Positions 15,001 through 18,000 of a stretch of 64,000 bases of DNA are shown piece by piece. A program made the position numbers. This DNA comes from Mizuhopecten yessoensis (lineage: Eukaryota): the NCBI RefSeq assembly GCF_002113885.1, contig NW_018407390.1, positions 2,725,587-2,789,586 of the forward strand, written 5' to 3'. How positions within the stretch are numbered: the first letter of the stretch is position 1; each line of letters opens with the position of its first letter.

Positions 15001-18000
15001 CCATATGTAATACAGCCAAATGTAACAAAGCCACATGCTTTCGTTTAGATATATAATTGGGATTGGACCTCTACATTGCTCTCTATATTAAGAACACAAG
15101 TTGTATTTTCCATAAAGTGTCTCTCGAGTCAGTCCCTATGTAGCTAACTTGAAAATCAAATAAGATCGGAGAAGATATCTTGTTATTCACAAACACAAAA
15201 ATAAAAGCAAAATGTTGCATACAATTGATGCTGACATTCACTCTCTTAATTACTACTATTATGCAACCAGTAAAAGACGTTCACAAGAAAAAACGAAACC
15301 TTGCAAGACTTCTCGATTACTAAGAGGTATTTAAAAGTCATAGGTCATTAACTTCAGTGTGGAATATGGCTATAATTTCTCCTTTAATGATTTCTTCAAA
15401 TGATGTTTTACTATTTACGATATGAACGAGTTTTACATTAACAATATAAGGTTATACAAATTAGGGTTTTAAGACAAGGTACAGAACATGTTGAGATTTA
15501 CAATGCCAACCATTCGAAAGCATAATATAAACAGCTTCTTAGATTTGAAGTCGATTTGGTTTAACGGCATGTCCTAACTTGTTCGTCTCAAATATCCCTT
15601 TTAGTGAACCATTAACCCTTCGACTTATTATTAGTTCTATCGCCATTTTACCACCATTATGAACACATTTTGTCAATTTATTCAGTCCTGTTTGCCCAGA
15701 TATATAGCGAGGTCCTAATGTTGAGTCGGAGTCACCTGAGAAAAACCACGTGGTCGGACAGGTGACTCTCTACTTATTTTCATTTACTGTAAAATCACGT
15801 TAAAGACTAAGTTATATTTATCAATTAATTGTTTGATATTTTGAAAGTTTTAACCAACGGTACGTATACTGAAACTGTATTCATCTTACCTTTTAAGGAA
15901 ATTCAGTGACACAATCCGATATTGATATGGAAAACCAACACAAAGTGACAATTCACAGTATGTGTACGATTTAAGTAATTTTGATGAAAAAAGAGATTTG
16001 TCAGTGCTGCAAATAGGGATGCAATAGTGATGCCAGGAATTTACAAAACAAGCCAAACTGACAACGAAAGGAAAATTTAAAAAATTAAACAAGCACAAGC
16101 TGCCATTAAGATGAAAATAAAATACTCATAGAATAAAGATGGAGGTAGAATATGTGACGAAAGTAATACCCCTCACAACAAAATATAGATAAATTCAATA
16201 TTATTAGAAAAAAATGACATTTTCTTACCTTCAAAAAAATATGAGTCATCTGGCAGAGAGTCTGTGAATAAGTCTATTTGTTTGCTGGGGTAACAGTGCG
16301 CAATAGTAGAGAGTATTACCACCACCACCGCCACGTACGAACACACGTATATGTTTGGCTGCATCCTTTTTCTGTCAACGTTTTCAGAATAGTGTCACTC
16401 AGGTCCAAAGTTTATCAAACAGTCTACAATCCCAATGTAAGTTGTTGCCAATGATACTAACGTGAGCCTGTATAGGAAATATGTTTTTCTGTTTAAACGT
16501 TTTAACTGTGCTATCTCAAAAACTTCATTTCATAGAGATGGTATGTCACTTTTATAGATCTATTTACAACTGTCAATAAAGGAGTGATCGTTTGGAAAGA
16601 GACTTGTCAACTGGTCAGATGAAGTTGAAATGTACGCTAATATAGCATTTATATATGCATGTGTGTATACAAACACTGTCGCGGAGCCTAGTCAATAATT
16701 CAGCGTACTAACCACACACGCGCGTGTAGGTTTCATTATTGCGACAGACCAGTAAGAATCAGATTTCACAGTCGAAATACGGGGGCGCTTTCAAGTGCAA
16801 ATTATCTTTGGTTTTCAATGAAACTCGTTACGTACATAATCTAGCAGTCACGTGACTTATTTCCTTCCCACGGAATATAGTCTACAGCCATTGGACAGGT
16901 ACGTAGCGGACAGATTGGATTGAAGCAAAATTGGGTTGCCAAGCTGTAACACGAAATGTCAATTATACTAATTTGTTTACGCTTATTTGTGTGGCTTTCT
17001 ACTTGATCCCTGGACTCTTTGCTCTTTTACAAGCGCCCGGAGAATACTGATCATTGTCCCTCGGGTGATCTGTTTCATTCTGTCGCTACCATAGCTGCCT
17101 ACTCGTATGCCTACCACTGGACATTTACAGTCGCCAGGGAGCAAGCTGCAAACAGCGATTCTAGTAAATTACATTAAATGAGGGAGCCATGCACGACAAA
17201 TAACACACAACCATCCCGGAAGGCGATTTGTTAAAGTAGCTAGAGGGATCAGTTTTACTACACTCTCCGAATAGATATAAAACTTGAAACAGACTCCTAT
17301 GAGATGAACCACACCATAATCAGTAGGCTACAAACAGTACTAGATGTCGTTATTACACTCGCAGAGAGCAGACTGTTTGAATCCCCAGACGGCTGATTTC
17401 TTACTTACATACTTACAAGTACAACCATATAAGAAGAATCACAGATGTCAACTAGCAACTACACAAATGTACTTAAATCCACAGTGTCATATATACTTAT
17501 TACGGATGAACAATTGATATTTATACGAATCTACCAATACAACCCTATCTGTTAAACTACAGACGCATTGAATAAAATAACACTTTCCGGACAAAAGCAT
17601 TCCCCATGAAACATATTTGAAGCCAAATAACTTTGGTTTAAACATATTTTAGGTGGAATATTTATTTCTTAGGGATAGGAACCAATAGAAAACCCCAGAA
17701 ACGTACTTTTCATTAAACTGTATTTACCGTCAACTTAATTTTATTAATAGAAAAATCTGGCGGAGTAGTTTGACGTTCATGGAGATATATTCCTAATGAC
17801 AAACATTGTTATCCAGATATAAAAATACGTAAGATATATTTCGAAAAGTGATTAGGTATTTTTTCATCTTTTGGGTATTAGATAATAAGTAGTTAAAGTA
17901 AGATAGCTTATAGTTGATGTCTGGCAATATGTTTGGTACTCCAAAATAATCACATAAATGTTTTTATCTAATTTAAGACCTAACAATGAAGTTGTGATTT

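What the first reader, a model, noticed from the sequence alone, without database searches (positions are those of the whole stretch)
16229..16467. Second signal-peptide exon with the same design: possible secreted-peptide gene cluster
Seen: 30 kb downstream on the same strand, a 136-nt coding exon has a signal peptide, a Tyr at the predicted +1 position, an acidic spacer and a phase-1 GTAAG donor, like the exon at 51340. There is no obvious sequence identity between them. I tried the visible minus-strand acceptors from 16228 to 1 and found no convincing KR/amide exon, so the rest probably lies beyond the window start or was missed. Inference: two tandem prohormone-like genes, either old paralogues or co-located hormones.
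Basis: partly seen in the sequence, partly recalled or inferred. Interest (0 to 1): 0.65.

Follow-up and report, generated by a model that had tools for sequence, protein, structure and literature searches.

The report
First exon of scallop SYGAGamide neuropeptide gene
This stretch is the first coding exon of an already published scallop neuropeptide precursor (SYGAGamide), and the similar exon 35 kb upstream belongs to a diverged, unannotated sister copy of the same small hormone gene family.

Summary
On the minus strand, ATG 16364 to 16229 is a 136-nt phase-1 coding exon with a GTAAGA donor. It encodes a hydrophobic leader, a Tyr-Pro start and an acidic spacer.

It matches residues 1-45 of a 117-aa Mizuhopecten yessoensis protein, LOC110455033, at 100% identity. 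UniRef names that protein SYGAGamide. A 2018 scallop ganglion study lists SYGAGamide as a new neuropeptide confirmed by mass spectrometry. A 2021 oyster study describes a similar family, WGAGamide.

Residues 46-117 are not encoded anywhere in the window. The rest of the gene therefore lies beyond the window start, and the intron exceeds 16.2 kb.

The link to the exon at 51340 is real. An exon at 46639-46521 fits that exon's phase and encodes a diverged copy of the family's C-terminal amidated peptide.

In Argopecten irradians, gene models join a 51340-type leader to the SYGAGamide body. The two leaders may therefore also be alternative first exons.

The gene is known. The sister copy and the locus layout appear to be undescribed.

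The parts
16229..16364 (-). Coding part of exon 1 of the SYGAGamide precursor gene (gene B; LOC110455033 of Mizuhopecten yessoensis). It is 45 codons plus 1 base, phase 1.
   Evidence: It is 100% identical over 45 of 45 residues to P0001. Sequence and frame are shown.
16293..16364 (-). Predicted signal peptide (24 residues if cleaved after C24; cleavage after A22 is also possible).
   Evidence: Hydropathy and the -3/-1 rule. This is a crude check, not a trained predictor.
16227..16228 (-). GT of the 5' splice donor (GAAG|GTAAGA).
   Evidence: In P0001 residue 46 is D, which fits G plus two bases of the next exon.
16229..16261 (-). A 33-nt 3' portion of exon 1, preceded by an internal AG at 16263-16262. 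It could serve as a phase 1-1 cassette if entered from an upstream exon.
   Evidence: Argopecten isoform X2 (P0013) carries an 11-residue insert that aligns with this portion and has the same length. Its use in this species is inferred only. The acceptor's pyrimidine tract is weak (0.45).
16365..16525 (-). Probable 5' untranslated part of exon 1. The upstream limit is approximate.
   Evidence: It lies downstream of the TATA-like motif. No RNA data were available, so this is inferred.
16549..16556 (-). TATAAAAG, the candidate TATA box of gene B, 192 nt upstream of the ATG.
   Evidence: One search found 5 matches in the window. Only 2 are on the minus strand, and both lie 164-192 nt upstream of the two leader ATGs. 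I chose the motif after seeing it.
1..16226 (-). Part of intron 1 of gene B. It continues beyond the window start.
   Evidence: No match to P0001 residues 46-117, and no family-profile match here better than E 7.9.
51241..51340 (-). Coding part of the distal leader exon (gene A exon 1, or an alternative first exon). It is 33 codons plus 1 base, phase 1, with donor AAG|GTAGGT.
   Evidence: It is 53% identical over 34 residues to the N-terminus of Argopecten irradians P0003 (E 7e-8).
51497..51504 (-). TATAAAAG, the candidate TATA box of the distal leader exon, 164 nt upstream of its ATG.
46521..46639 (-). Terminal coding exon of the diverged sister copy (gene A). It has a phase-1 acceptor (ttattccag|AA) and a KR site. 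A 31-residue peptide follows, ending RFGAA, then Gly-Arg-Lys and a stop.
   Evidence: Sequence. tblastn with 11 of the 12 family proteins sent hits it. The family profile scores E 1.6e-6. Identity matrix. No annotated protein carries it.

Best explanation
**What the exon is.** The exon at 16364-16229 is the first coding exon of the Yesso scallop SYGAGamide neuropeptide precursor gene. It supplies the signal peptide and the start of an acidic propeptide. The remaining 72 residues are encoded beyond the window start.

**How it most likely works.** This rests on general prohormone biology and on the sites in the deposited protein.
1. The leader is removed on entry to the secretory pathway.
2. Convertases cut at RR, KR and KR, and probably at a conserved single Arg that follows a Gly.
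3. Basic residues are trimmed.
4. C-terminal Gly residues are turned into amides.

The product is a 33-residue peptide ending RFGAG-amide, or a 22-residue amide plus a 9-residue one. It is released by ganglion neurons and acts on an unknown receptor.

**The exon at 51340.** It heads a tandem, anciently duplicated sister copy. That copy has its own TATA-like motif and its own short terminal exon at 46639-46521. The terminal exon encodes a strongly diverged peptide ending RFGAA-amide.

**Possible alternative first exons.** All junctions are phase 1, and Argopecten gene models splice the distal leader onto the SYGAGamide body. In scallops the two leaders may therefore also serve as alternative first exons of one transcription unit.
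For: **Shown**
- The exon is 100% identical to P0001 over 45 of 45 residues. P0001 was the only scoring hit among 4 candidates.
- P0001 is named LOC110455033 by NCBI and SYGAGamide by UniRef. Its sequence carries the processing sites.
- PMC5996578 (passages read) lists SYGAGamide among 13 new scallop neuropeptides and among the 6 confirmed by mass spectrometry.
- PMC8398477 (passages read) describes oyster WGAGamide. [quoted passage not shown]
- An exhaustive search gave 11 relatives at E <= 1e-3. A profile search gave 13 at E <= 1 among 1919 candidates.
  - The hits with a source name are all bivalves: Pecten, Argopecten, Mya, Mactra, Dreissena, Mercenaria and Ruditapes.
  - All share the C-terminal block.
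- Sister copy: tblastn E 2.8e-5 and profile E 1.6e-6 against a next-best of 1.5. It has a phase-fitting acceptor, KR, Gly-Arg-Lys and a stop.
- Argopecten P0003 and P0013 carry a 51340-type leader on the SYGAGamide body. P0013 also carries the 11-residue tail of a 16364-type exon.
- Both of the minus-strand TATAAAAG matches sit just upstream of the two leaders.

**Inferred**
- The processing steps, secretion and receptor action.
- Which splice choices are used in this species.
Against: - No RNA evidence could be examined here for any junction.
- The exons for residues 46-117 were not seen, because they lie outside the window.
- The sister copy's terminal exon has no annotated protein in any species searched: no hit of 71 aa or longer, and none among proteins of 18-217 aa.
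- It is the most diverged family member. It is 28-46% identical to the others, while they are 36-100% identical to each other.
- It lacks the Gly-Arg pair that most members keep. It retains 5 of the 8 columns that are invariant in the 17 database members. It could therefore be a decaying relic.
- The Argopecten isoforms are computed gene models whose support I could not see.
- An exon matching Argopecten's intermediate exon was not found in the window.
- The TATA motif was chosen after seeing it.
- The oyster study did not detect its peptides by mass spectrometry, and it reports very low expression in the ganglia.
Confidence: 0.85

Rival explanations
1. One gene, two promoters. The 51340 and 16364 exons are alternative first exons of a single SYGAGamide gene. 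The exon at 46639-46521 is a dead remnant of an old duplication and is never spliced in.
For: - Argopecten isoforms X2 and X3 join the distal-type leader to the SYGAGamide body.
- All junctions are phase 1, and both leader exons end in G.
- An internal AG sits at the place homologous to the Argopecten X2 junction.
- The 46639 exon is highly diverged and unannotated.
Against: - The 46639 exon keeps an open frame of 38 codons, the KR site, the amidation Gly, the dibasic pair and a stop directly after it. It also has the best pyrimidine tract of the three acceptors checked (0.75).
- It is the nearest phase-fitting acceptor to the 51241 donor.
- No Mizuhopecten protein with the distal leader turned up in the profile search.
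- The distal route would need an intron of more than 51 kb.
Confidence: 0.35
2. Two unrelated hormone genes that merely lie side by side.
For: The two leader exons share no detectable similarity, and neither do their upstream regions. The local alignment score there was 22, against a shuffle mean of 22.4 and a maximum of 36.
Against: - The terminal exon downstream of the 51340 leader is a significant member of the same peptide family.
- A 51340-type leader sits on a SYGAGamide body in Argopecten.
Confidence: 0.03
3. A chance open frame, or the head of a large unrelated secreted protein such as an enzyme.
For: None beyond the general point that hydrophobic ATG-started frames occur by chance. 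In the window, 15 of 393 reach the hydropathy threshold.
Against: - The exon is identical to the N-terminus of a 117-aa deposited precursor.
- The Pecten maximus orthologue has 60% identity in this exon.
- The peptide was published with mass-spectrometric support.
Confidence: 0.01

Closest known systems
SYGAGamide precursor of Patinopecten (Mizuhopecten) yessoensis, LOC110455033 (Zhang et al. 2018, PMC5996578)
   Same: The finding's exon is identical to residues 1-45 of this protein. This is the gene itself.
   Different: Nothing differs for the exon. The passages I read do not mention the genomic layout: an intron of more than 16 kb, a distal leader exon and a sister terminal exon. The supplements were closed and may hold more.
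Cragi-WGAGamide precursor of Crassostrea gigas (Mar Drugs 2021, PMC8398477)
   Same: [quoted passage not shown]
- P0005 and P0006 carry the same block ending RWGAGG and are 67% identical to P0001 in the 39-column block. They come from an unnamed source, and their link to the oyster family is my inference.
   Different: - Trp stands in place of Phe before GAG.
- There are no basic residues after the final Gly.
- The N-terminal half of the precursor is different.
- The oyster peptides were not detected by mass spectrometry.
RFamide neuropeptides (FMRFamide-like)
   Same: The core is Y-L/M-R-F, in a small secreted, amidated peptide at the C-terminal end of a precursor.
   Different: The RF is followed by G-A-G (or G-A-A) before the amidation Gly. 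The predicted C-terminus is therefore Gly- or Ala-amide, not Phe-amide.
Arthropod DH31, PDH and vertebrate NPFF or CCK precursors (nearest named clusters in the ESM Atlas feature search)
   Same: The general build is that of a roughly 100-aa neuropeptide precursor. Feature scores were 0.93 to 0.89.
   Different: - No Pfam family is matched by P0001.
- None of the 14 members of alignment A1 matches a neuropeptide family.
- Only 3 of the ten best atlas hits share a family, which the tool itself reads as 'probably wrong'.

Membership tests
SYGAGamide/WGAGamide bivalve neuropeptide precursors: gene B (finding's exon) | N-terminal signal peptide on a precursor of about 105-125 aa | tested here: met
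   Hydrophobic leader with -3/-1 sites. P0001 is 117 aa.
SYGAGamide/WGAGamide bivalve neuropeptide precursors: gene B (finding's exon) | Conserved C-terminal block of about 34 residues, ending R-F/W-G-A-G-G with or without basic residues and preceded by a basic cleavage site | tested here: met
   The block is present in P0001, whose first 45 residues are this exon. The exon that encodes the block lies outside the window.
SYGAGamide/WGAGamide bivalve neuropeptide precursors: gene B (finding's exon) | Expression in nerve ganglia and detection of the peptide | not testable with these tools
   Taken from passages of PMC5996578: a ganglion transcriptome, and SYGAGamide listed among the six peptides confirmed by mass spectrometry.
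SYGAGamide/WGAGamide bivalve neuropeptide precursors: sister copy (51340 + 46639 exons) | Conserved C-terminal block ending R-F/W-G-A-G-G | tested here: inconclusive
   - The match is significant (E 1.6e-6).
- The ending is RFGAAG.
- A two-residue gap removes the Gly-Arg pair.
- 5 of the 8 columns invariant in the 17 database members are kept.
SYGAGamide/WGAGamide bivalve neuropeptide precursors: sister copy (51340 + 46639 exons) | Leader exon and peptide exon joined in one transcript | not testable with these tools
   The phases fit. No RNA data were available, and no annotated protein was found. I did not build or search the joined model.
RFamide peptides | C-terminal Arg-Phe-amide, i.e. RF directly followed by Gly and a basic site or a stop | tested here: not met
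   RF is followed by GAGG-KR in P0001 and by GAAG-RK in the 46639 exon.
DH31/calcitonin-like, PDH, NPFF, CCK and NPY-type precursors | A match to the family's Pfam model | tested here: not met
   P0001 matched 0 families at E <= 10. The 14 A1 members gave only 3 unrelated weak matches, the best at E 0.026. The atlas scores of 0.93-0.89 are leads only.

The most novel reading that the evidence does not exclude
The locus is a compound neuropeptide unit. A distal promoter and leader exon at 51340 can finish on its own nearby terminal exon, giving a so far undescribed peptide ending RFGAA-amide. It can also read through more than 51 kb into the SYGAGamide body, optionally through a 33-nt cassette carved out of the proximal leader exon. 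One tandem pair would then deliver two different amidated hormones, and two different propeptide heads, through promoter and terminal-exon choice.
Probability: 0.25. Interest if true: 0.5.

Novelty: already known. Interest (0 to 1): 0.27.

Why it matters
For the finding itself this is a tidy confirmation. A tool-free reader recognised the head of a real neuropeptide gene that was published in 2018.

The small added value lies in the locus structure.
- The family has no known receptor or function. The oyster study offers only a first hint of a link with early gametogenesis.
- A second, diverged scallop copy with an altered C-terminus would be a natural structure-activity contrast for receptor work.
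- Shared or alternative leader exons would be a clean example of how tandem peptide genes become entangled.

None of this bears on a long-standing open question.

Tried and rejected
**Searches that found nothing useful**
1. A scan for downstream exons by eye and by KR/GKR filters in minus-strand frames of 1-16228 found nothing convincing. later showed why: the exons are not in the window.
2. The bacterial-type promoter and terminator scan is not meaningful for an animal gene. It found 4 sites against 3.2 expected.
3. A local DNA alignment of the two upstream regions gave a score at the shuffle mean, so no shared promoter sequence was found.
4. I searched the window for Argopecten's intermediate exon.
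   - The best scores were 30-35, at noise level.
   - The one minus-strand candidate, at 19147-19082, has neither a fitting phase nor a fitting donor.
5. Polyadenylation hexamers occur 63 and 324 nt after the 46521 stop. The background is 2.4 per kb, so this is not informative.
6. One search used a wrong column range, because the first Met was misaligned. One search replaces it.

**Family leads that failed**
7. Pfam gave nothing, and the ESM Atlas leads were not supported.
8. The first four residues after C24 are, as I recall, the same as the start of vertebrate NPY. No family model supports this, and this end of the propeptide is not the conserved part. I rejected it as coincidence.

**Steps that could not be run or were left out**
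The origin of the unnamed relatives stays unknown, and I did not pursue it.
11. The atlas look-up of the 46639 exon was not possible.
It was rerun with a 40-aa reference.
13. I left out the joined two-exon model of the sister copy. The exons were searched separately.
14. Synteny next to POLR3C in other bivalves could not be checked.
15. Paper supplements were closed. Supplementary Figure S1 of both papers may show the precursor, its peptides and their alignment.

Full report
**What is at the coordinates**

The minus strand between 16467 and 16229 reads as the first-stage reader described.
- The ATG at 16364 is the first in-frame ATG after a stop.
- It opens 45 codons plus one base, 136 nt in all, which end at GAAG|GTAAGA.
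- The peptide begins with a hydrophobic leader. Its best 12-residue hydropathy mean is 2.99, and only 15 of 393 ATG-started frames of 34 or more codons in the window reach 2.5.
- Small residues at -3/-1 allow signal-peptidase cleavage after A22 or after C24. The Tyr at +1 is therefore plausible but not unique.
- The remaining 21 residues hold 5 acidic residues and 1 basic one.

The other exon starts at 51340, which is 35 kb away rather than 30 kb. It is 100 nt of coding sequence, also phase 1, ending AAG|GTAGGT. The two peptides show no BLASTP alignment at E <= 100. Their upstream DNA is no more alike than shuffled sequence.

**Identity**

I searched the exon peptide on its own against proteins longer than itself. 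One protein scored among 4 candidates.
- It is a 117-aa protein of Mizuhopecten yessoensis, 100% identical over all 45 residues.
- NCBI names it uncharacterized protein LOC110455033, and UniRef names it SYGAGamide.
- After the exon's 45 residues it continues with D. That fits the split codon, G plus two bases.
- It runs through RR, KR and KR sites to a C-terminal block that ends RFGAG-G-KR.

The window is therefore Yesso scallop DNA, and the exon is annotated and named.

Two papers in the held library name the family.
- PMC5996578 (passages read) is a ganglion transcriptome and proteome study of this scallop. It lists SYGAGamide among 13 newly named neuropeptides and among the six confirmed by mass spectrometry.
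- PMC8398477 (passages read) describes oyster Cragi-WGAGamide.
  - It potentially encodes four peptides.
  - Expression in the visceral ganglia is very low, and there was no mass-spectrometric detection.

**Where the rest of the gene is**

tblastn of the full protein against the window finds residues 1-45 at 16364-16230 and nothing for residues 46-117 at their own locus. I built a profile from the 17 database family members and ran it against all 2880 six-frame ORFs of 15 or more residues. It gave no match in 1-16228 better than E 7.9. The remaining exons therefore lie beyond the window start, and intron 1 is longer than 16.2 kb.

**The link to the 51340 exon**

The same tblastn gave one other significant hit, at 46634-46524 on the minus strand (E 2.8e-5), aligned to the C-terminal 39 residues of the precursor.
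- The DNA shows a strong acceptor, ttatttattccag|AA, with a pyrimidine fraction of 0.75.
- The first two bases complete the G left by the 51241 donor.
- Then come M-N-K-R, a 31-residue peptide ending RFGAA, a Gly, Arg-Lys and a stop.
- Eleven of the 12 family proteins sent hit this exon by tblastn. The family profile, which holds no window rows, scores it at E 1.6e-6, while the best unrelated ORF scores 1.5.

The exon that follows the 51340 leader is thus a member of the same peptide family, and the two leaders head related units. It is also the most diverged member.
- In the 39-column block it is 28-46% identical to the 17 database members. They are 36-100% identical to one another, and the three scallop species are 97-100% identical.
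- A two-residue gap removes the Gly-Arg pair.
- It keeps 5 of the 8 columns that are invariant in the database members.
- No annotated protein carries it. There was no hit of 71 aa or longer, and none among the 13 profile hits of 18-217 aa.
- Paper searches for names built on its ending found nothing relevant. None of the 8 papers was relevant.

**Relatives and what they add**

An exhaustive search with the deposited protein found 11 relatives at E <= 1e-3. The profile search found 13 at E <= 1 among 1919 candidates. Those with a source name come from Pecten, Argopecten, Mya, Mactra, Dreissena, Mercenaria and Ruditapes. All share the C-terminal block, and the N-terminal halves vary.

Three results bear on the finding.
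1. Pecten maximus LOC117333864 has a 16364-type leader, with 60% identity in the exon.
2. Argopecten irradians P0003 and P0013 are labelled isoforms X3 and X2 and lie on a contig of the same length.
   - They start with a leader that is 53% identical to the window's 51340 exon (E 7e-8).
   - They then continue into an ordinary SYGAGamide body.
3. P0013 differs from P0003 by its first few residues and by an 11-residue insert. The insert matches the last 11 codons of the 16364-type exon.
   - The window has an AG at 16263-16262 at the homologous place.
   - That would yield a 33-nt phase 1-1 cassette of the same length, although its pyrimidine tract is weak at 0.45.

In at least one scallop's gene models, then, the distal leader is an upstream first exon of the SYGAGamide gene itself. 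I could not see the RNA support of those models. I also found no window counterpart of their intermediate exon.

**Promoters**

TATAAAAG occurs 5 times in the window, which is no more than chance overall. Only two matches are on the minus strand, at 16556-16549 and 51504-51497. These lie 192 and 164 nt upstream of the two ATGs. I picked the motif after seeing it, so the coincidence counts as suggestive only. It fits two independent transcription starts. It also suggests that exon 1 here begins near 16525, not at the weak acceptor at 16467. Two short upstream ATGs, at 16533 and 16528, lie about at that start.

**Mechanism**

The exon, its identity, the processing motifs in the deposited protein and the family conservation are shown. 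The following is inferred from general prohormone biology:
- removal of the leader;
- convertase cuts at the dibasic sites, and perhaps at the conserved Gly-Arg;
- trimming of basic residues;
- amidation of the exposed Gly;
- release from ganglion neurons;
- action on an unidentified receptor.

RF is not the C-terminus, so this is not an RFamide in the strict sense. No Pfam family matches. The ESM Atlas feature search places the protein among neuropeptide precursors in general: DH31 at 0.93, then NPFF, PDH and CCK. By the tool's own criteria it does not support any one family.

**Two genes or one**

The evidence does not decide.
- For a separate two-exon sister gene: it has its own promoter motif, the nearest phase-fitting acceptor, and an intact frame with all processing signals.
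- For one unit with alternative first exons: the Argopecten models, the uniform phase and the conserved internal AG.

Both may hold, with the distal leader choosing between its own terminal exon and the downstream body. I searched the sister copy exon by exon only. The joined model was not built, searched or folded.

**Verdict**

The gene is already known, annotated and published. The undescribed parts are the diverged sister terminal exon and the possible sharing of leaders. They are a modest addition and need RNA evidence.

Three things stayed unchecked.

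Noticed in passing
window 63519-63737 (+): An open frame starts with a Met and matches Pfam HTH_9, the RNA polymerase III RPC82 helix-turn-helix domain (E 4.8e-9). It points away from the peptide locus.
   Followed up: partly
window 56976-59173 (-) and 19822-20922 (+): - Three consecutive open frames on the minus strand include reverse-transcriptase matches (RVT_1, E 1.1e-18 and 6.4e-6), so this is a broken non-LTR retroelement.
- The 366-aa frame at 19822-20922 has no Pfam match. 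By eye it resembles the C-terminal frame of that element.
- The 19822-20922 frame lies between the two leader exons. The reverse-transcriptase frames lie upstream of the distal leader, towards POLR3C.
   Followed up: partly
window 25523-28427, 35098-36468, 38066-40651, 41295-43110: Large satellite arrays lie between the two leader exons. They account for most of the long 'ORFs' listed.
- 24 bp x 121 copies.
- 21 bp x 65 copies, 97% matches.
- Two related arrays of 25/50-bp units, about 103 and 34 copies.
   Followed up: no
window 1-344, 36658-37035, 49277-49798, 60091-60576: Smaller tandem arrays of 62 bp x 5.5, 47 bp x 8, 48 bp x 10.8 and 60 bp x 8. The array at 1-344 is cut by the window start. 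The frame over the 48-bp array gave only a sub-threshold DDE_3 match (E 0.0099).
   Followed up: no
window 46400-46520 (-): Directly after the stop of the 46639-46521 exon, a stretch of about 55 nt is repeated twice, nearly exactly and in direct order. I saw this by eye. Whether it is part of a 3' UTR or of a mobile element is unknown.
   Followed up: no
window 41179: A single N, the only one in the window, lies inside a repeat-rich stretch just upstream of the 25/50-bp array that TRF starts at 41295. I left it as it is.
   Followed up: no
P0003 / P0013 (Argopecten irradians protein models): The two isoforms also differ in their first residues: one starts five residues further upstream than the other. 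This hints at alternative 5' ends of the distal leader exon in that species.
   Followed up: no
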